From IMG/VR virus record IMGVR_UViG_3300015157_000063, positions 1 through 13,930 of that record: a DNA stretch of 13,930 bases. One strand, written 5' to 3'. The position numbers and the translations under genes are program-made. Positions 1 to 6,980 of the stretch are shown here, in pieces. Positions within the stretch are counted from its first letter, which is position 1; the number at the start of each line of letters is the position of its first letter. The notes beneath the pieces are model-generated. The model was not told the origin of the DNA, searched no databases, and saw only the letters and a list, made by a program, of their open reading frames with translations. The DNA comes from a virus. Taxonomy: Duplodnaviria; Heunggongvirae; Uroviricota; Caudoviricetes.

Positions 1-22
1 ACGGGGTCGTTTTTGTGCGGAA

Positions 23-148
23 TTAAAAACGATATCCTGCTGAGAACATAAACACCCACGGATCGAGGCGTACGCTATCGTGTTGCTGTGCACCGCCCAG
101 CTTATAATTGGCGGTGGTATCGATATCCATGTACCACACTGGTAGGTT
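23..148 (-). pseudogene. C-terminal remnant of a Lom/Ail/PagC-family outer-membrane protein (41 codons, in-frame TGA immediately upstream)
   Basis: Minus-strand frame reads NLPVWYMDIDTTANYKLGGAQQHDSVRLDPWVFMFSAGYRF then stop; ends in the GYRF aromatic C-terminal beta-strand typical of Lom/Ail barrels. Not in the ORF track because it is under 60 aa. Confidence 0.3.
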
Positions 149-451
149 TCAAAAAACACAATAACCAATTGTATTTGAAGCAAAAAACAAGACTTTGAGA
201 TGTTTTTTTTGTACCTTTTTTTATGTTTTTAACTGTCTGATTTTATTGAAATCTTTTTTAGTTTTGCAGAAGGAATTTTTTACTTGATTGTAACTTTTTC
301 GTTTTTTTGGGGCTAATTGACGCGCAATGCTGGGCGGGGAGCGCACAGCCAAAAAAACCGAAATTGACCGCTAATTACTGCCAATCATCATCGCTCTGAT
401 TGAGCGTAAATCATTCAGGTTATTCAGTTCTTCCTTCTGCTCTCGCTGACG

Positions 452-622
452 TCAATAAATCCCATCATTGCGATCAACCTCATCCTTAACCATTGATGCG
501 AGCAGTTCTTCCAGTTTCTGCGCTGACAGCTTTACCTGGTGATCTTCAGCATCTTCCCGGGCTATTGTGGTTCGCGCAGTGGCTGATTTTGCTGACATCA
601 CCACAGGGGGCAGACGGACCAT
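452..622 (-). CDS. hypothetical small acidic protein (56 aa from internal ATG at 622)
   Basis: ORF track 452..733; upstream part of that ORF overlaps the hairpin at 689-722, so the internal start MVRLPPVVMSAKS... with GGAGG about 10 nt upstream is more plausible. No recognisable motif. Confidence 0.3.
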   Translation of the reverse strand: MVRLPPVVMSAKSATARTTIAREDAEDHQVKLSAQKLEELLASMVKDEVDRNDGIY

Positions 623-686
623 TGAACCATGGCCTCCGGAACAAATAAGGGCAAAAATAACAACCACTATCGAAAGCTCACAAACT

Positions 687-823
687 AACCGCAGCACGTT
701 CCTGCATACGACGTGTCTGCGGCATAATCCCAATGATTACTCCCTGACAGGATTTGCAGGCCACTCAATATCAGGTACAGTTGATGTATCAACACGATTC
801 AACAATACCCGATATTTATTCCA
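687..823. repeat. direct repeat copy A (~137 bp; tfa 3' end plus hairpin)
   Basis: Near-identical by eye to 1737..1872 (aaccgcagcacgtt...cataatcccaatgattactccctgacagg...ccactcaatatcagg.cagttgatgtatcaacacg.ttca...); one indel inside the hairpin loop. Confidence 0.8.
689..722 (-). terminator. hairpin just downstream of the tfa-fragment stop (copy A of the repeat)
   Basis: Inverted repeat CCGCAGCACG ... CGTGTCTGCGG directly 3' of the stop at 737-739, followed on the minus strand by a T-containing tract. Confidence 0.4.
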
Positions 824-1006
824 TGCCTCCAGCAACGATCTTTCTTCCTCCGTTGCGATTTCCAGATCTACAGCATCCTGCAGTGGCGCAATATACTCAC
901 TGAATTCCTGGATGTGGAACTGTGTGGTGACGGTCTTCCAGTCATTCGGCTCCTGCTGTATCGAAGCATACCAGGCTATTTCAATATCGCTATGCTGCGG
1001 CAGCAT
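737..1006 (-). pseudogene. tfa: tail fibre assembly protein (Tfa) C-terminal fragment, 5'-truncated
   Basis: Translation ...[54 protein letters not shown] aligns with the C-terminus of the Tfa at 3691..4218 (...[45 protein letters not shown]). Only about half a Tfa is present; the upstream part is replaced by the methyltransferase gene. Confidence 0.6.
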
Positions 1007-1062
1007 TTAACCCCTTGTAATTCATCGCCATAATTGATTTAATTCACAAATAAAACTATAAC

Positions 1063-1731
1063 ATGGTGAAATCAATGAAAAAAAACACAGATGATGGGGC
1101 TAAAATTTACACACCACTTACCCTAAAGCTTTATGACTGGTGGGTTTTGGGAGTATCAAATCGGCTTGCATGGGGATGTCCTACAAAGGAACACCTTCTT
1201 CCACACTTTCTGGAACATGTAGGTAACAACCATCTGGATATTGGTGTTGGAACTGGGTTTTACCTTACTCACGTACCTGAGAGTAGTCTGATATCTTTAA
1301 TGGATTTGAACGAAGCTAGCCTGAACGCGGCATCTACAAGGGCTGGGGAATCAAAAATTAAACATAAAATTAGCCATGATGTTTTTGAACCTTATCCCGC
1401 GGCGTTACATGGTCAATTTGATTCCATTTCCATGTTTTACCTTCTTCACTGCCTGCCTGGAAATATATCTACAAAAAGCTGTGTAATACGCAATGCGGCG
1501 CAGGCCTTAACTGACGATGGAACTCTATACGGAGCCACAATTCTTGGCGATGGAGTTGTGCACAATAGCTTCGGTCAAAAACTGATGCGCATTTACAATC
1601 AGAAAGGCATCTTTTCAAACACAAAAGATTCCGAAGAAGGCTTAACACATATACTCTCAGAGCATTTCGAGAATGTTAAAACCAAGGTTCAAGGTACTGT
1701 AGTAATGTTTTCCGCTTCAGGGAAAAAATAG
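1063..1731 (+). CDS. class I SAM-dependent methyltransferase (Rossmann fold), substrate unknown
   Basis: Motif I HLDIGVGTGFYL, acidic residue at the end of beta-2 (LMDLNE), motif FDSISMFYLLHCLPG. No DPPY or PCQ DNA-methyltransferase motifs. Likely true start is the ATG at 1075 (MKKNTDD), preceded by GGTGA. Coding sequence is visibly AT-rich compared with the structural genes. Confidence 0.7.
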   Translation: MVKSMKKNTDDGAKIYTPLTLKLYDWWVLGVSNRLAWGCPTKEHLLPHFLEHVGNNHLDIGVGTGFYLTHVPESSLISLMDLNEASLNAASTRAGESKIKHKISHDVFEPYPAALHGQFDSISMFYLLHCLPGNISTKSCVIRNAAQALTDDGTLYGATILGDGVVHNSFGQKLMRIYNQKGIFSNTKDSEEGLTHILSEHFENVKTKVQGTVVMFSASGKK

Positions 1732-1736
1732 CATCC

Positions 1737-1872
1737 AACCGCAGCACGTTCTTGCTTAAGACGTGCTGCGGCATAATCCCAATGATTACTCCCTGACAGG
1801 GTTCGTAGGCCACTCAATATCAGGTGCAGTTGATGTATCAACACGGTTCAGTAACACCCGATACTTTTTCTA
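1737..1872. repeat. direct repeat copy B (tfa 3' remnant plus hairpin)
   Basis: Matches 687..823. Contains hairpin CCGCAGCACG...CGTGCTGCGG at 1739-1771 and, on the minus strand, 26 codons [27 protein letters not shown]-stop equal to a Tfa C-terminus. Confidence 0.8.
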
Positions 1873-2136
1873 GGCTTCCACCACCAGCACGACAAGATGC
1901 CGCATACAGTGAACCAGTCAGTCCAGTTTTCAGACAACCAGTGCGTCACCTTTTTGAAGGCGCTTTAAAGCACGTTTTAATCCAGGTCGGCCTGTCCTTG
2001 TTCCGCTTAATTTATCTTCAAATATTTGTTCATATCCTGCACAAACAAGAGCGTTTCGTTGCAGATCTGTATTCTGGTCATTTGTTGATACCCTTACATA
2101 GCCAATCAGCACGCTGAATCTCCCGTCCAAAAGCAC
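1786..2136 (-). pseudogene. pin: Din-family serine DNA invertase (Pin/Gin/Hin-like), inactivated: two nonsense codons, 3' deletion, fused to a tfa 3' remnant
   Basis: ORF 1930..2136 (GTG start) encodes ...LIGYVRVSTNDQNTDLQRNALVCAGYEQIFEDKLSGTRTGRPGLKRALKRLQKGDALVV then stops where family members read VVWKLDRLGRS. In-frame continuation reads stop-KLD-stop-LVHCMRHL..., i.e. TGG->TGA and CGA->TGA. After about codon 85 the frame runs into Tfa C-terminal codons. Confidence 0.8.
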
Positions 2137-2166
2137 AAATCATGCCATGCAGGCCAGAAACCGCCA

Positions 2167-2192
2167 TTATCTAAAACCTCGGTTTACGAGAA
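2167..2192. other. gix/hix-like 26-bp invertase crossover site (right of pin)
   Basis: TTATCTAAAACC-TC-GGTTTACGAGAA; close match to the Gin/Hin crossover site as recalled from memory, and inverted relative to the site at 5248..5273. Confidence 0.7.
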
Positions 2193-3125
2193 CTCGGCAC
2201 AAGCGGGGAGAAAATACCGTTACTCAGTACAGCGAATACCTGGACTAATCGACAAACATTCAGCGGTGGCCTTTCTGGTGAACTATCCGGCAATGCTTCT
2301 ACAGCTGCAAAATTAAAAACTGCCAGGAAAATAAGCAATGTGGTTTTTGATGGTTCCTCCGATATCACATTAAAAGCAAGTCATGTTGGTGCGTTTGCCT
2401 TAGGGAAAACAGGAAGCACCGTTGCGAATGATAAAGCAGTTGGATGGAACTGGAGTAGCGGAGCCTATAACGCAACTATTAGTGGTGCATCAACGTTAAT
2501 TATTCATTTTTATATGGGAGAAGGAAGTTGTCCTGCAGCTCAGTTTCGGATTAATTATAAAAATGGCGGTATTTTTTATCGTTCAGCCCGTGATGGTTAT
2601 GGTTTTGAAGCCGACTGGTCCGAATTTTACACCACCACCAGAAAACCTTCAGCAGGAGATGTTGGTGCACTGCCGTTATCTGGTGGTCAACTGAATGGTG
2701 CACTGGGTATCGGAACATCCAGTGCTCTTGGCGGTAATTCGATTGTATTGGGTGATAATGACACGGGCTTTAAACAAAATGGCGATGGTAATCTGGATGT
2801 TTATGCTAATAACGTCCATGTTATGCGCTTTGTCTCCGGAAGCATTCAAAGTAATAAAACCATAAATATTACAGGGCGTGTTAACCCCTCGGATTACGGT
2901 AACTTTGATTCCCGTTATGTGAAAGATGTTCGACTTGGTTCACAGCAATATTATGGAGTGAACAACTGGCAAACATGGAATTTCCGGTGCCCTTCAGGTC
3001 ATGTATTGTCTGGTATTAATGTTCAGGATACAGGGTCTAACTCTGCCGATAATATAGCGGGCGTTTATTACAGACCCGTTCAAAAGTATATAAATGGCAC
3101 CTGGTATAATGTAGCGAGCGTTTAA
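2175..3125 (+). CDS. alternative tail-fibre C-terminal cassette (stf' variable part), start-less, expressed only after inversion
   Basis: Open in frame from the crossover site (ORF track 2340..3125 is the downstream part). Translation [62 protein letters not shown]... ends with ...[17 protein letters not shown], sharing the [20 protein letters not shown] and QKYI.G.WYNV motifs with the stf at 4234..5892. Confidence 0.7.
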
Positions 3126-3126
3126 T

Positions 3127-3660
3127 ATGATGCACTTAAAGAACATAAAAGCGGGTAATGCTAAAACACTGGAACAGTATGAGTTAACAAAGAAACACGG
3201 AGTTATCTGGCTTTACTCTGAGGACGGAAAAAACTGGTATGAGGAAGTGAAAAACTTTCAGCCAGACACCATAAAGATTGTTTACGATGAAAATAATATT
3301 ATTGTTGCCATAACCAAAGATGCCTCCACACTTAACCCTGAAGGTTATAGCGTCGTTGAGATTCCTGATATTACCGCCAACCGGCGTGCTGACGACTCAG
3401 GTAAATGGATGTTTAAAGATGGCGCAGTCATTAAACGTGTATATACCGAAGAAGAGTTGCGCCTACAGACGGAAAACCAGAAAAAAATATTATTACAGCA
3501 GGCCAGAGAAAAAACGCAGTTCTGGCAAACACAGCTTACTTTGGGGATTATCACTGATTCAGACAGACAGCAACTGATGAACTGGATGCGATACGTGCAA
3601 CAGGTTGAGACAACTGATACCTCGGTTCTTCCTGTAACATTCCCGGAACCACCAGAATAA
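3127..3660 (+). CDS. tfa: tail fibre assembly protein, alternative copy (tfa')
   Basis: 177 aa; [44 protein letters not shown]... is a paralogue of the minus-strand Tfa ([44 protein letters not shown]...). Start overlaps the stf' stop. Confidence 0.85.
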
Positions 3661-3663
3661 GAA

Positions 3664-3681
3664 AAGGCCCGTACGGGCCTT
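3664..3681. terminator. perfect palindrome between the convergent tfa' and tfa genes (bidirectional terminator candidate)
   Basis: AAGGCCCGTACGGGCCTT lies in the 30-bp gap between the two stop codons. Confidence 0.5.
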
Positions 3682-3690
3682 AATTTGTTG

Positions 3691-4218
3691 TTATTCTGGT
3701 TTCTGTGGCCATTCAGGCTTTGCAGTATCCACACGGCTGACCATAACGCTGTAGCGTTCCCATGATTCCAGTCGTGTGCGTTCCTCATCAGTTGCCATAT
3801 TCAGTCTGACAGCACGTTCCAGCGGTTGAATCACAGACTCCGCTTCGGAAAGCAAAGCGGCTTTTTGTAACTCTGCCTGCTGTTGCAGTTCCTGTTTTGT
3901 ATATTCCCGCTTTACTACTTTACCATCCAGAAACTTCCAGTTTCCCGAGATATCGGCGCGACGGTTGGCTGTTATATTCGGTAACTCAACAACACTTAAC
4001 CCGTCAGGGTTAAGTGTTGATACGTCTTTCTCAATACAACGAATAATCCCCTTCTGGTCATAAGCTATTTTTAAAGTATCATCCTGAAAGTTTTTTAATT
4101 CGTCATACCAGTTTTTACCGTCTTCTGTATATAGCCAGATAACGCCAGCTTTTTTCGTAAGCTGATACTGCTCAATGGTTTTGGGGTTTCCGGCGGTAAT
4201 ATTTTTCAGATGTTGCAT
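3691..4218 (-). CDS. tfa: tail fibre assembly protein Tfa
   Basis: 175 aa, lambda Tfa / Mu U-like; AGGAGA Shine-Dalgarno upstream; immediately downstream of stf. Confidence 0.9.
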
Positions 4219-4233
4219 ATATTCTCCTGATGG

Positions 4234-5892
4234 CTATGCCTGTTCAACGTTATACCAGTTACCAGAAATGTATTTTTGTAGTGGTCGTGACACCATCCAG
4301 TCATCTCCATCAACCTCACCAATAATTTGCAATCCTGTTGTCACATGACCATTACCTGGTTCGCAAAGTCCTCCGCGATATAATGTGTCAGAACGTCTGC
4401 CTCCCAGACGCACATTTCTGATAAAAGAACTATTCAGGTAATCATTTAAGTTTGAACCCCAGCACCCACCAAATATATTTCCATCGGTGTTATAACGGAC
4501 GCCACCCGCAATAAGAGCACCCGGTGAAATAAAGGATTTATCGTTCGGGTTAAAATACCATAAAGCATCATTACCTCCATCGCCACGCATATGAATACAT
4601 GGAACCGGAAATCCATACTGTTCTGTCAGTAAATACCCAAAGCTGACCGCGCCGGGATAGCCCTGTCCATTGCGAATGGACAAGCCCTTAACTATCGGCA
4701 CGTAATGACCACCAGGAGTGGGATTCCAGGCAAACTGCGTCTGAACAAAAGGCGCGGTGGCATTATTCAACTGGTCTGCAAATGCGCCACTTCCATCAGG
4801 AATTATTCCCTGATGAATATATGCAACCCGCTTATAAAAATCAGCAGATGCGGGTTGAAGCCCAAATGCCAGTTGTCCATTTGAATAGAATAAAAGGACA
4901 CCGTCGCCGCCCTGTTTAATACCAGTGTCGTTATCTCCGAGAGTAATGGAATTACCGCCCAGTGCGTTATCTGTACCAAGCGCCAGCCCACCATCAATTT
5001 TGGCCCCGTGGCTGACAGATATAGCACCTGTTCTCAGATTTATAGCGAATGGCCTTAATGGGCCGATATCACCGTTTTCGCCTTGTCCTTCAGCCGTCGG
5101 AATGAAATGAAGAAAATCTTCTGAACGACGGAAAATAAGACCGAAGGCATCATTGAAAATTCGCAGCGCATTCACCGTGCCAATTTTCAGTTCTCCGGTC
5201 ATTTTATCGCCGGAACGCTGAACGGCGTTACCAGCCTTGTTTACCGTTTCCTGTAAACCGAGGTATTCGATAACGGCGGCAACGGTCGATTTCGCAAGAA
5301 TATCCCGCCCAACTTTTGTCAGGGTTGCCAGACTGGCAACATCATTCCCCGTAAAATACGGAAACCTGTCTGCCGCAGTAGCAAGCCCGGCCAGCGCCGT
5401 CAGGGTGGCATCTTTCGGTTGCTTACCCGCAAGCGCGTTAGTCATGGTGGTCGCAAAATTCGGGTCGTTGCCCAACGCCGCAGCCAGCTCGTTCAGCGTA
5501 TTCAGTGCGTCAGGCGACGAGTCCACGAGGGCAGCGATCGCAGCCATAACATAAGCCGTGCTTGCGATTTGGGTATTATTCGTTCCCTGTCGCGCAGTTG
5601 GTGTTGTTGGCGTTCCGGTCAGTGCAGGACTATTTAAGGGCGCTTTCTTGTTCGTTTCACCCATTACCGCCTTAACCGCTTTTGGCGTTGCCGCCAGTGA
5701 CTCGGAAGTGCTGTTGGTCGCACTGCTGAGCTGTACTATCCCCTTTTTCGTCGTGCTCGCATCCTCCAGCGCCACGGCGGATGCAATATCCTCTGACCGC
5801 CATATTGTCCAGGTACAGGTTCTGGCCGTTGCGCCACCAGTCATCCTCGCGATGAAAATCCGGCATATCAATTCCCGCCAGATGGTATGCAT
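4234..5892 (-). CDS. stf: side tail fibre protein (lambda Stf-like), 5'-truncated; Stf-homologous part is about 4234..5800
   Basis: ...EDIASAVALEDASTTKKGIVQLSSATNSTSESLAATPKAVKAVMGETNKKAPLNSPALTGTPTTPTA...NTLNELAAALGNDPNFATTMTNALAGKQPK... matches the middle region of lambda Stf as recalled. The first ~30 codons of the ORF are K-gene sequence read out of frame. Confidence 0.85.
   Translation of the reverse strand: MHTIWRELICRIFIARMTGGATARTCTWTIWRSEDIASAVALEDASTTKKGIVQLSSATNSTSESLAATPKAVKAVMGETNKKAPLNSPALTGTPTTPTARQGTNNTQIASTAYVMAAIAALVDSSPDALNTLNELAAALGNDPNFATTMTNALAGKQPKDATLTALAGLATAADRFPYFTGNDVASLATLTKVGRDILAKSTVAAVIEYLGLQETVNKAGNAVQRSGDKMTGELKIGTVNALRIFNDAFGLIFRRSEDFLHFIPTAEGQGENGDIGPLRPFAINLRTGAISVSHGAKIDGGLALGTDNALGGNSITLGDNDTGIKQGGDGVLLFYSNGQLAFGLQPASADFYKRVAYIHQGIIPDGSGAFADQLNNATAPFVQTQFAWNPTPGGHYVPIVKGLSIRNGQGYPGAVSFGYLLTEQYGFPVPCIHMRGDGGNDALWYFNPNDKSFISPGALIAGGVRYNTDGNIFGGCWGSNLNDYLNSSFIRNVRLGGRRSDTLYRGGLCEPGNGHVTTGLQIIGEVDGDDWMVSRPLQKYISGNWYNVEQA
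5248..5273. other. gix/hix-like 26-bp crossover site inside stf at the constant/variable boundary
   Basis: TTCCTGTAAACC-GA-GGTATTCGATAA; its reverse complement matches 2167..2192 at 22 of 26 positions; lies at stf codons ~207-215 (VIEYLGLQE). Confidence 0.7.
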
Positions 5893-6271
5893 CCCGGAAC
5901 AGCGTGTAACAGTCCGTCACCCCGTGCTCAAAGCGCCGTCCTGTCAGATGTGGCACACAGCGGAATTTATGAATTTCCCCCCGGCAGACCAGCCACCAGG
6001 GCAGTGCGCTTTTTATCTGCAGCCGCCGGTCAGCCTCGCTCAGCCAGGGCAGCTCACCGGGATGACTGTGGACCAGTGCCACAATCTCCCCCTGCATCTC
6101 TGCCCGCAGCCAGTCTTCCGGTGCGATACGAAAATACGCCTCCGGCTCTGCGGAAATATTCACACAAGGGATATACCGCTCCCCCTCCGGCGTGCTTATC
6201 ACGAAGCCGCACGACTCCGCAGGCGCACACCGCCGGGCATGCGCCAGAATCGCTGATTCAGTCTGTGTCAT
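5672..6271 (-). pseudogene. K: tail-tip assembly protein K (JAB/MPN + NlpC/P60), homologous only over 5804..6271, 3' end replaced
   Basis: MTQTESAILAHARRCAPAESCGFVISTPEGERY...VALVHSHPGELPWLSEADRRLQ...DCYTLFRDAYHLAGIDMPDFHREDDWWRNGQNLYLDN matches lambda K; after codon ~156 the frame reads unrelated sequence that is stf in another frame. Confidence 0.8.
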
Positions 6272-6281
6272 AAACCGGGAT

Positions 6282-6980
6282 TTACTGCGAAAGTTTATTA
6301 ATGGAAAGGAAACCGCCAAAATTGCCGACATTCCTGCGCAGTTCACACCCGCGCATGCACTTGCTGCATCTGTCCTTACGGATATCCGTGGTGGGTTTAT
6401 CGAACTCATCCGCCACAGCCCCGCCCGTGTAACCACACTCATCAGAGCGGTAGGTCCACATACAGGTGTTCGCCAGCATGATACGACCGGGAAACTGCGC
6501 TCCGTCCGTCTCGGTCGGTGTGGCCAGCACAAACGAGGCCGTCATGGCTGTCAGCTGCGACATCTGCTCCACCACCCAGCGGTCGCTCAGCTCCTGCTCC
6601 GGGTCCGCTTCCGGATTGCCCGCCACAAAATTCACCGCATCCAGAAAACGGGCATACACCCGGCGGCGGACCACCGTGGCCCCCACCAGACTCTGCAGGT
6701 CTTCCGCCATCCCGGTGACAAGGCCGAACAGATTGGACACCGTCAGCGACGGTCTGGCACTGCTGCCTTTCCCGTTCATTTCAAAGCCGCTGCCATCAAT
6801 CGGGTACGCCTCATACTTACGCCCCTGCCAGGTGACCGGCTCCCCTTTTTCATTCAGCTCATTACAGAAAAAATACCGCTCACCGCCCTGTACCGTCAGG
6901 TCGATTTCCCAGAGTACCACCCGCGGTGACTGCTCTGATTTAACCGACTCGTTCAGACTTTCTTCGTGAATATCCTGCAT
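6282..6980 (-). CDS. L: minor tail protein L
   Basis: 232 aa; MQDIHEESLNE...VVLWEIDLT..GGERYFFCNE.NEKGEPVTWQGR.Y..YPI.GSGFE.NGKG...GNFGGFLSINKLSQ is near-colinear with lambda L. Confidence 0.9.
   Translation of the reverse strand: MQDIHEESLNESVKSEQSPRVVLWEIDLTVQGGERYFFCNELNEKGEPVTWQGRKYEAYPIDGSGFEMNGKGSSARPSLTVSNLFGLVTGMAEDLQSLVGATVVRRRVYARFLDAVNFVAGNPEADPEQELSDRWVVEQMSQLTAMTASFVLATPTETDGAQFPGRIMLANTCMWTYRSDECGYTGGAVADEFDKPTTDIRKDRCSKCMRGCELRRNVGNFGGFLSINKLSQ

What the first reader, a model, noticed from the sequence alone, without database searches (positions are those of the whole stretch)
2167..5273. Invertible tail-fibre host-range switch whose invertase is dead
Two 26-bp gix/hix-like sites in inverted orientation (2167-2192 and 5248-5273, 22/26 identical) bracket stf variable part, tfa, tfa' and a start-less stf' cassette. 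Crossover at the central dinucleotide would join stf codons 1-211 in frame to the stf' cassette (...[16 protein letters not shown]...), giving a second fibre. The adjacent invertase gene carries two stop codons and a 3' deletion, so the segment is probably locked unless a Din invertase elsewhere in the genome acts in trans.
Basis: partly seen in the sequence, partly recalled or inferred. Interest (0 to 1): 0.6.

Follow-up and report, generated by a model that had tools for sequence, protein, structure and literature searches.

The report
Prophage tail-fibre switch flipped in trans
This is a Mu-G-type invertible tail-fibre cassette in a decayed E. coli prophage whose own invertase gene is dead, but it still flips, almost certainly through an invertase encoded elsewhere, and this same element was published in 2014 as prophage Phi4 of strain EC958.

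Summary
Two 26-bp gix-like sites (2167-2192 and 5248-5273) are 22/26 identical in inverted orientation. They bracket stf-variable/tfa and tfa'/stf' cassettes. An exact in-silico crossover at the central TC/GA dinucleotide gives an in-frame hybrid fibre. The adjacent invertase is a stump of about 79 of ~190 codons, with two TGA stops, fused to a tfa fragment.

The inference "probably locked" is wrong. Inverting 2179-5261 in silico reproduces E. coli AST46 over 11,799 nt with two mismatches, both outside the segment. AST46 has the same deletions and the same dead invertase. Flipped EC958 equals JJ1886 exactly (0/5,411). Clonal serial blood isolates p11A and p11B differ by this inversion. Among complete genomes carrying the dead-invertase junction, 239 have one orientation and 143 the other.

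Forde et al. 2014 (PMC4134206) described this element as EC958 prophage Phi4. They listed the same sites and the truncated invertase, found both orientations in PacBio reads, and proposed the Phi1 invertase acting in trans.

Two points are added here. The stump keeps the region homologous to the Fis-dependent enhancer. In this window the fibre gene has also lost about 447 N-terminal codons, and the prophage lacks its tail genes, so flipping here changes no virion. Already known; low interest.

The parts
2167..2192 (.). Left 26-bp crossover site (gix-like). The central TC lies at 2179-2180.
   Evidence: It is 23/26 identical to Mu gix and identical to 'Phi4_3prime' in Table 3 of PMC4134206.
5248..5273 (.). 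Right 26-bp crossover site, inverted relative to the left site. The central GA lies at 5260-5261, inside the stf reading frame.
   Evidence: It is 24/26 identical to Mu gix and identical to 'Phi4_5prime' in PMC4134206.
2179..5261 (.). Invertible segment, 3,083 bp between the crossover points (3,107 bp including both sites).
   Evidence: Inverting this interval in silico reproduces AST46 (2 mismatches in 11,799 nt, both outside the segment). The equivalent inversion of EC958 reproduces JJ1886 (0/5,411).
1876..2112 (-). Invertase pseudogene stump: codons 1 to about 79 of a Gin/Pin-type serine invertase. It has TGA stops at 1932-1930 and 1920-1918. The rest of the catalytic domain and the HTH domain are deleted.
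   Evidence: RefSeq annotates it as 'recombinase family protein, incomplete, missing C-terminus'.
2023..2094 (-). Stretch homologous to the recombinational (Fis-dependent) enhancer, invertase nt 19-90. It lies 86-157 bp from the centre of the left site.
   Evidence: The P1 record annotates the 'enhancer of Cin-mediated C-segment inversion' at cin nt 19-90. The window stretch is 70/72 identical to Mu gin there. Function is inferred, not tested.
1766..1883 (-). tfa 3'-end fragment fused to the invertase stump. It marks the 3' deletion joint.
   Evidence: It is a direct repeat of 717-834 (88%). The stump reads into ...[27 protein letters not shown].
2181..3125 (+). Start-less alternative fibre C-terminal cassette (stf').
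   Evidence: The frame is open from the site to 3125. It hits gp37_C. It forms the 3' end of a 941-aa fibre in JJ1886 and p11A.
3127..3660 (+). tfa', the assembly chaperone cognate to stf'.
   Evidence: Caudo_TAP, E = 6e-32.
3691..4218 (-). tfa, the assembly chaperone cognate to the currently joined fibre end.
   Evidence: Caudo_TAP, E = 9e-35.
4234..5261 (-). Variable C-terminal part of stf, currently joined to the constant part.
5262..5799 (-). Remnant of the constant part of stf: the last ~179 of ~626 constant codons.
   Evidence: Phage_fiber_2 repeat. Homology to EC958 stf stops at 5799. RefSeq annotates it as 'phage tail protein, missing N-terminus'.
5786..6271 (-). Truncated tail gene K (C40 peptidase) abutting stf. 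This is the deletion joint that removed the K 3' end, I, J, lom and the stf 5' end.
   Evidence: Annotation. The same joint is present in AST46.

Best explanation
This is an orphan Din-family invertible tail-fibre segment of the Mu G-segment type, sitting in a heavily deleted lambdoid prophage at the trpA/yciE-ompW locus of E. coli.

Mechanism. A serine DNA invertase encoded elsewhere in the cell binds the two 26-bp sites. A dimer on each site synapses with a Fis-bound enhancer. The enzyme cuts at the central TC/GA dinucleotide and rotates the strands, which inverts 2179-5261. That swaps which C-terminal fibre cassette and cognate chaperone (stf/tfa or stf'/tfa') is joined in frame to the constant part of stf.

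The resident invertase gene is dead: two TGA stops and loss of everything after about codon 79. Its retained 5' end still carries the enhancer-homologous DNA at about the native distance from the left site. That would explain why the segment remains a good substrate in trans.

What is shown: the sites, the frame, the pseudogene, and both orientations with the exact predicted recombinant half-sites in lineages carrying the same dead invertase.

What is inferred: the identity of the trans-acting enzyme and the function of the retained enhancer. The leading candidate is the P2-like 'Phi1-type' invertase, whose own sites are 25/26 and 26/26 identical to these.

In this particular window the switch has no virion output. 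stf lacks about 447 N-terminal codons, and the J, tail-tube and most tape-measure genes and the capsid 3' end are gone.
For: Sites and frame.

Pseudogene anatomy.

Flipping after the invertase died:
- AST46 equals the window with 2179-5261 inverted, with 2 mismatches in 11,799 nt at positions 916 and 942. It has the same K-stf and capsid-TMP deletion joints and the same stump. Its sites are the predicted hybrids TTATCTAAAACCTCGGTTTACAGGAA and TTCTCGTAAACCGAGGTATTCGATAA.
- EC958 flipped in silico is identical to JJ1886 (0/5,411).
- p11A and p11B are clonal recurrent-bacteraemia isolates. Their flanks are 100% identical and the 3,119-nt segment is inverted.
- The dead-invertase junction joined to orientation A occurs in 239 genomes, and to orientation B in 143.
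- DLI.5a (orientation A) and AST46 (orientation B) share an IS5-like insertion next to the prophage that TOE17 lacks.

Crossover position: it maps to the 12-bp identical core between the site mismatches. That is too short for RecA-dependent recombination (established knowledge).

Published: PacBio reads of EC958 show both orientations of this 3,106-bp segment with these exact sites. The authors note the truncated invertase EC958_1582 and propose Phi1 acting in trans (PMC4134206).

Enhancer: P1 annotation, alignment, and the ~100 bp native hixL-to-Fis-site distance (PMC3798978).

Candidate enzyme: an intact 199-aa invertase in a P2-like prophage has sites 25/26 and 26/26 identical to the window's. 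TOE17 and DLI.5a each have one close match to its C-terminal half. TOE17, DLI.5a and AST46 have 4, 4 and 2 extra distant invertase-like places over baseline.
Against: - No read-level data were available for the window's own strain, so ongoing flipping in that strain is inferred from sister genomes.
- AST46 has no close (megablast) match to the Phi1-type, pinE, gin or cin C-terminal halves. It has only 2 weaker places whose intactness and location I could not see. The enzyme that flipped it is therefore unidentified; it could have been a plasmid, a superinfecting phage or a lost prophage.
- Enhancer function rests on homology only. The G-N13-C Fis-like 15-mers (invertase nt 22-36 and 71-85) are 49 bp apart rather than the 48 bp I recall for hin. 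One carries a G-to-A change relative to gin.
- Differences in orientation between assemblies could partly reflect which subpopulation the assembler chose. That still implies both states exist.
Confidence: 0.87

Rival explanations
1. Locked fossil. With the invertase dead, the segment is frozen in the orientation seen, and any orientation polymorphism predates the loss of the invertase.
For: The invertase is certainly non-functional. Megablast finds no close pinE, gin or cin C-terminal half in the TOE17, DLI.5a or AST46 chromosomes.
Against: Clonal serial isolates p11A and p11B differ only by the inversion. EC958 and JJ1886 differ only by the inversion. DLI.5a and AST46 share later events (deletions, an IS insertion) yet differ in orientation. 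A single EC958 culture held both orientations (PMC4134206). More distant invertase homologues are present in these chromosomes.
Confidence: 0.07
2. The inversion is produced by RecA-dependent homologous recombination between the short inverted repeats, or between the homologous stf/stf' and tfa/tfa' coding sequences. On this reading it is not site-specific recombination.
For: Inverted homologous sequences exist inside the segment, for example 3073-3112 / 4247-4286 (40 nt, 73%).
Against: The observed recombinants have the exchange exactly within the 12-bp identical core of the 26-bp sites, with outer and inner half-site mismatches partitioned as predicted. Twelve bp of identity is below the roughly 25 bp needed for efficient RecA recombination (established knowledge). 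The internal repeats are only 73% identical, and recombination there would give different junctions, which were not seen.
Confidence: 0.03
3. Assembly artefact: the two orientations reflect mis-assembly across inverted repeats rather than real molecules.
For: Inverted repeats can confuse assemblers, and Forde et al. first noticed the variants as 'spurious contigs'.
Against: The repeats are only about 32 bp, far shorter than any read. The segment is 3.1 kb of unique sequence. Hundreds of independent complete genomes show each state with perfectly formed hybrid sites. Forde et al. excluded adapter and hairpin artefacts.
Confidence: 0.02

Closest known systems
Prophage Phi4 invertible tail-fibre segment of E. 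coli ST131 EC958 (Forde et al. 2014, PLoS One 9:e104400, PMC4134206)
   Same: It is the same element. The two 26-bp sites are identical. The segment sizes agree (3,106 bp in the paper; 3,107 bp here, counting both sites). The truncated invertase lacks the HTH domain in both. The chromosomal locus is the same. The window is 99.65% identical to EC958 over positions 374-5799.
   Different: The window's copy is further decayed. A deletion joins tail gene K to the middle of stf, removing about 447 stf codons together with I, J and lom. Another deletion joins the capsid gene to the end of the tape-measure gene. The left end lacks the ash/Rha genes of ST131. The paper does not discuss the enhancer.
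Bacteriophage Mu G segment (gin, gixL/gixR, S/U and S'/U')
   Same: The architecture is the same: the invertase gene reads away from the segment and sits next to the start-less S'-type cassette. The sites are 23-24/26 identical and share the same GA core. The invertase 5' 180 nt are 174/180 identical to gin. The closest phage is the Mu-like Yersinia phage vB_YpM_3, at 96.4% over the invertase 5' end, stf', tfa' and tfa.
   Different: The host element is a lambdoid prophage remnant, not a Mu-like phage. The invertase is a stump. Inversion depends on an enzyme encoded elsewhere.
e14 P segment / pin and P1 C segment / cin
   Same: They belong to the same Din family: 26-bp sites, Fis-dependent enhancer inside the invertase gene, and alternative fibre ends with chaperones. 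Cross-complementation among Gin, Cin, Pin and Hin is established knowledge.
   Different: The sites are more diverged (pix 18-20/26). In P1, cin reads towards the segment and cixL overlaps its 3' end. Both systems have intact invertases.

Membership tests
Din-family (Gin/Cin/Pin/Hin) invertible tail-fibre segment | Two 26-bp imperfectly palindromic crossover sites in inverted orientation with identical central dinucleotides | tested here: met
   L and R are 22/26 identical to each other and 23/26 and 24/26 identical to Mu gix. Both have a TC/GA core. There are 2 hits against 0 expected.
Din-family (Gin/Cin/Pin/Hin) invertible tail-fibre segment | Adjacent functional serine invertase gene (Resolvase catalytic domain plus C-terminal HTH) | tested here: not met
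   Only codons 1 to about 79 remain, with TGA stops at codons 61 and 65. Pfam Resolvase matches residues 3-60 only and there is no HTH. The element is therefore an orphan substrate, not an autonomous system.
Din-family (Gin/Cin/Pin/Hin) invertible tail-fibre segment | Cis-acting Fis-dependent recombinational enhancer within the 5' end of the invertase gene | tested here: inconclusive
   The homologous stretch (2023-2094) is present and 70/72 identical to Mu gin. It corresponds to the enhancer annotated in P1 cin at nt 19-90 and lies about 95 bp from the site centre. Fis binding and enhancer activity were not testable here.
Din-family (Gin/Cin/Pin/Hin) invertible tail-fibre segment | Fibre gene split into a constant 5' part outside the segment and two alternative in-frame 3' cassettes, each with a cognate assembly chaperone, inside it | tested here: met
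   Both junctions are in frame. There are two Caudo_TAP genes in mirror arrangement.
Din-family (Gin/Cin/Pin/Hin) invertible tail-fibre segment | Both orientations occur, with exchange at the central dinucleotide | tested here: met
   AST46, JJ1886 and p11A carry the predicted hybrid sites and are otherwise identical to the in-silico flipped models. The genome counts are 239 against 143. PacBio evidence is in PMC4134206.
Working phage host-range switch | A complete fibre gene and tail genes, so that either orientation yields an assembled fibre on a virion | tested here: not met
   stf is missing about 447 N-terminal codons. The K 3' end, I, J, tube genes, most of the tape-measure gene and the capsid 3' end are deleted. 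Relatives such as EC958 and JJ1886 keep full-length stf (968 and 941 aa).

The most novel reading that the evidence does not exclude
The retained 5' stump of the dead invertase may be kept because it carries the enhancer. On that reading these are maintained orphan invertons, slaved to one master invertase (for example that of a P2-like prophage) that co-flips the fibre cassettes of several prophages and remnants in one cell. Even virion-incompetent remnants would then stay as a flipping reservoir of fibre ends for recombination with incoming phages.
Probability: 0.12. Interest if true: 0.4.

Novelty: already known. Interest (0 to 1): 0.15.

Why it matters
It matters little beyond housekeeping. 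The element, its sites, its dead invertase and its flipping in trans were described in 2014.

Practical value:
- It explains recurrent orientation differences and 'spurious contigs' in E. coli assemblies at the trpA-ompW prophage.
- It explains the shifting annotation there. The displaced cassette is called 'hypothetical protein' or 'tail fiber protein, missing N-terminus' depending on orientation.
- It cautions against inferring that a switch is locked from a dead neighbouring recombinase.

The modest new point is that the stump preserves the enhancer-homologous DNA. That would be a testable reason why orphan segments stay flippable.

Tried and rejected
1. Locating the trans-acting invertase in the window's host. 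The genome search lists only the best place per record. I therefore attached invertase C-terminal halves to a single-copy trp/yci anchor and read 'places_in_record'. This gave counts: 0 close pinE/gin/cin matches; one close Phi1-type match in TOE17 and in DLI.5a and none in AST46; and 4, 4 and 2 distant matches over baseline. It gave no coordinates and no information on intactness, so the enzyme stays unidentified. Plasmids of these strains were not examined.

2. Pinning down the Fis sites by motif. G-N13-C 15-mers at invertase nt 22-36 and 71-85 are conserved with gin and pin but not fully with cin. They are spaced 49 bp apart, and an alternative pair at nt 46 and 94 is 48 bp apart. The motif is too degenerate to decide, so I rely on homology to the annotated P1 enhancer.

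3. Using P1 as an architectural template. This was rejected because cin faces the opposite way relative to its segment. Mu is the proper template.

4. RecA-mediated inversion and assembly artefact were considered and rejected (see the rival explanations).

5. The eLife Hin paper gave the ~100 bp distance but no enhancer sequence in its text.
Full report
WHERE THE WINDOW COMES FROM

The window is E. coli chromosome. It is 100% identical over positions 1-6600 to strain DLI.5a, and it differs at 3 of 13,930 positions from strain TOE17. It lies next to trpA-yciG-yciF-yciE and a remnant of ompW, so it is a prophage inserted at ompW.

The prophage is a wreck. RefSeq annotation of the identical TOE17 region shows a capsid gene missing its C-terminus, joined to the last 114 nt of a tape-measure gene. 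It shows tail genes M and L, then a C40-peptidase (K) gene missing its C-terminus, joined directly to a 'phage tail protein missing N-terminus'. No portal, tube or J gene, and no integrase or immunity gene, appears in the stretch examined.

CHECKING THE OBSERVATION

The repeat finder reports inverted arms at 2161-2192 and 5248-5279 (32 nt, 84%). They are 22/26 identical, and both have a central TC.

Mu's gix sequence was read from the Mu record at the two annotated G-segment boundaries. It is TTATCCAAAACCTCGGTTTACAGGAA. Searching the window with it at up to 3 mismatches finds exactly these two sites, while 200 shuffles gave none.

Between the sites lie four features:
- the variable part of stf (4234-5261, - strand);
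- tfa (3691-4218, - strand);
- tfa' (3127-3660, + strand);
- a start-less stf' frame (2181-3125, + strand).

Both tfa genes are Caudo_TAP. The constant part of stf carries a Phage_fiber_2 repeat, and stf' hits gp37_C. Joining the reverse complement of 5260-5892 to 2181-3125 gives an open frame reading ...[22 protein letters not shown]... through to the stop at 3125.

THE INVERTASE

On the - strand from GTG at 2112, the sequence reads VLIGYVRVSTNDQNTDLQRNALVCAGYEQIFEDKLSGTRTGRPGLKRALKRLQKGDALVV. Then comes TGA, where Gin, Pin and Cin have W61. Then KLD, then TGA where they have R65. About 14 more homologous codons follow, after which the sequence switches to the 3' end of a tfa gene (...[27 protein letters not shown]).

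Roughly 79 of ~190 codons survive, with two stops among them. Pfam sees only Resolvase residues 3-60 and no HTH domain.

The stump is a mosaic. Its nt 1-180 are 174/180 identical to Mu gin. Its nt 181-236 are closer to e14 pin (45/56) than to gin (32/56).

IS IT LOCKED? NO

I built the exact inversion product (2179-5261 reverse-complemented) and compared it with public genomes.

1. Strain AST46 matches the flipped model without gaps over 11,799 nt. The only two mismatches are at 916 and 942, outside the segment. It carries the same K-stf and capsid-TMP deletion joints and the same invertase stump. Its two sites are exactly the predicted hybrids: the outer half-sites stay with the flanks and the inner half-sites travel with the segment.

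2. Within ST131, EC958 has the window's orientation and JJ1886 the opposite. EC958 flipped in silico is identical to JJ1886 at all 5,411 compared positions.

3. p11A and p11B are clonal isolates from recurrent bacteraemia in one patient (bioRxiv 10.1101/616961). Their chromosomes are 5,295,151 and 5,295,156 bp. The flanks here are 100% identical and the 3,119-nt segment is inverted.

4. I used a 961-nt probe spanning the invertase-tfa deletion joint and either orientation of the segment. It matches at 80% coverage or more in 239 complete genomes for orientation A and in 143 for orientation B. The stf-constant/variable junction gives 239 (A) and 325 (B).

5. DLI.5a (A) and AST46 (B) share an IS5-like insertion beside the prophage that TOE17 (A) lacks. 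The flip is therefore recent even within the remnant lineage.

The exchange always falls in the 12-bp identical core between the mismatches at site positions 9 and 22. That fits cleavage at the central dinucleotide by a serine invertase. It does not fit RecA-dependent recombination, which needs longer identity (established knowledge).

THIS IS ALREADY PUBLISHED

Forde et al. [quoted passage not shown] Their Table 3 lists the Phi4 sites as ccgccgTTATCGAATACCTCGGTTTACAGGAA and ccgccaTTATCTAAAACCTCGGTTTACGAGAA, with a 3,106-bp invertible segment. Those sites are identical to the window's.

They note that Phi4 encodes a truncated invertase (EC958_1582) lacking the HTH domain. [quoted passage not shown]

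I confirmed the substance of this on an ST131 genome. A P2-like prophage there carries an intact 199-aa invertase. Its sites are TTATTTAAAACCTCGGTTTACGAGAA (25/26 to the window's left site) and TTATCGAATACCTCGGTTTACAGGAA (26/26 to the right site).

WHAT FLIPS IT IN THE WINDOW'S OWN HOST?

The search tool shows only one place per record. I therefore attached invertase C-terminal halves, the part missing from the stump, to a single-copy anchor and read the number of places per record.

- By megablast, TOE17, DLI.5a and AST46 have no close match to the pinE, gin or cin C-terminal halves.
- With sensitive blastn, they have 7, 7 and 5 places against an anchor-only baseline of 3, so 4, 4 and 2 extra invertase-like places.
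- With the Phi1-type C-terminal half by megablast, TOE17 and DLI.5a each gain one place and AST46 gains none.

So candidate enzymes exist in these chromosomes. I could not see where they lie or whether they are intact, and plasmids were not examined. This step remains inference.

WHY A DEAD INVERTASE GENE CAN STILL MATTER IN CIS

Din invertases need a Fis-bound enhancer, which lies inside the 5' end of the invertase gene. The P1 record annotates the 'enhancer of Cin-mediated C-segment inversion' at cin nt 19-90. In Salmonella the proximal Fis site lies about 100 bp from hixL (PMC3798978).

The homologous stretch of the stump (window 2094-2023) is intact and 70/72 identical to Mu gin. It lies 86-157 bp from the centre of the left site. 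The deletion that killed the gene stopped about 145 nt beyond this stretch.

I infer that the orphan segment remains a competent substrate because it kept both sites and the enhancer. This was not tested. The Fis motif is too degenerate to confirm by sequence, and Forde et al. do not mention the enhancer.

WHAT THE SWITCH DOES HERE

In relatives such as EC958 and JJ1886, the fibre gene is full length (968 and 941 aa), and flipping swaps the receptor-binding end and its chaperone. This is the classical host-range switch of Mu, P1 and e14.

In this window, homology to stf begins only at 5799. About 447 N-terminal fibre codons and the genes for the rest of the tail are gone. Flipping here therefore changes no virion. 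It is residual activity on a fossil substrate, possibly relevant only as a reservoir of fibre ends for recombination with other phages, which is speculation.

ORIGIN OF THE CASSETTE

The closest phage match is the Mu-like Yersinia phage vB_YpM_3. It is 96.4% identical over the invertase 5' end, stf', tfa', tfa and the end of stf, and it has an intact invertase. Mu, D108, P1, P7 and P2-like phages follow at 72-80%. The cassette is thus a Mu-G-type module mosaically carried by a lambdoid prophage.

VERDICT

The element is already known and of low interest. The small additions are the enhancer retention, the within-patient flip, the 239/143 orientation census, and the continued flipping in a virion-incompetent remnant.

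Noticed in passing
window 687-834 and 1737-1883, flanking 1063-1731: Two directly repeated tfa 3'-end fragments (88-90% identical) flank an intact class I SAM-dependent methyltransferase (222 aa). The right-hand fragment is the sequence fused to the invertase stump. The same tfa-methyltransferase-tfa module matches the K-12 chromosome at about 577-578 kb, which I recall as the DLP12 tfaD-ybcY-tfaX region, and thousands of other E. coli genomes.
   Followed up: partly
window 1876-2112 (- strand): The invertase stump is a mosaic. Its nt 1-180 are gin-like (174/180 to Mu gin). Its nt 181-236 are closer to e14 pin (45/56 against 32/56). This suggests past recombination between invertase alleles.
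   Followed up: partly
window ~7412-7427 and ~5786-5799: Two internal deletion joints. The first fuses the protease/capsid ORF (7412-9016, missing its C-terminus) to the last 114 nt of the tape-measure gene. The second fuses tail gene K (C40 peptidase, missing its C-terminus) to the middle of stf. Both joints are shared with TOE17 and AST46, and DLI.5a shares at least the K-stf joint. ST131 copies keep a full-length stf together with lom and J; their capsid/tape-measure region was not examined.
   Followed up: partly
L003 (AST46) 8594-9562; L004 (JJ1886) 8594-9562; L001 (TOE17) 11232-12125: Annotation changes with orientation. The displaced fibre cassette is called 'hypothetical protein' (969 nt) in one state and 'tail fiber protein, missing N-terminus' in the other. 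This is a source of spurious gene-content differences between near-identical genomes.
   Followed up: no
NZ_CP035819.1 (strain WS3294A), record 12264-13343 and 4991965-4993044: One circular chromosome holds both the flipped and the unflipped stf junction about 16 kb apart across the record origin (hits H36 and H65). This may be a duplicated or alternative-allele contig merged into the assembly, the artefact Forde et al. warned about, or it may be two related prophages.
   Followed up: no
window 12617-13195 with 12706-12891 (- strand): An Rz-like lysis gene contains an embedded out-of-frame 61-aa ORF with a lipoprotein-type signal ([15 protein letters not shown]...). This is the usual Rz/Rz1 nested arrangement. 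Upstream, an HNH endonuclease (11590-11955) sits next to the small and large terminase genes. Both features are ordinary.
   Followed up: no
left of window position 1 (DLI.5a and AST46 records): DLI.5a and AST46 carry an IS5-like (ISKpn26 family) insertion between yciE and the ompW remnant. TOE17 lacks it. This gives a relative order of events within the remnant lineage.
   Followed up: partly
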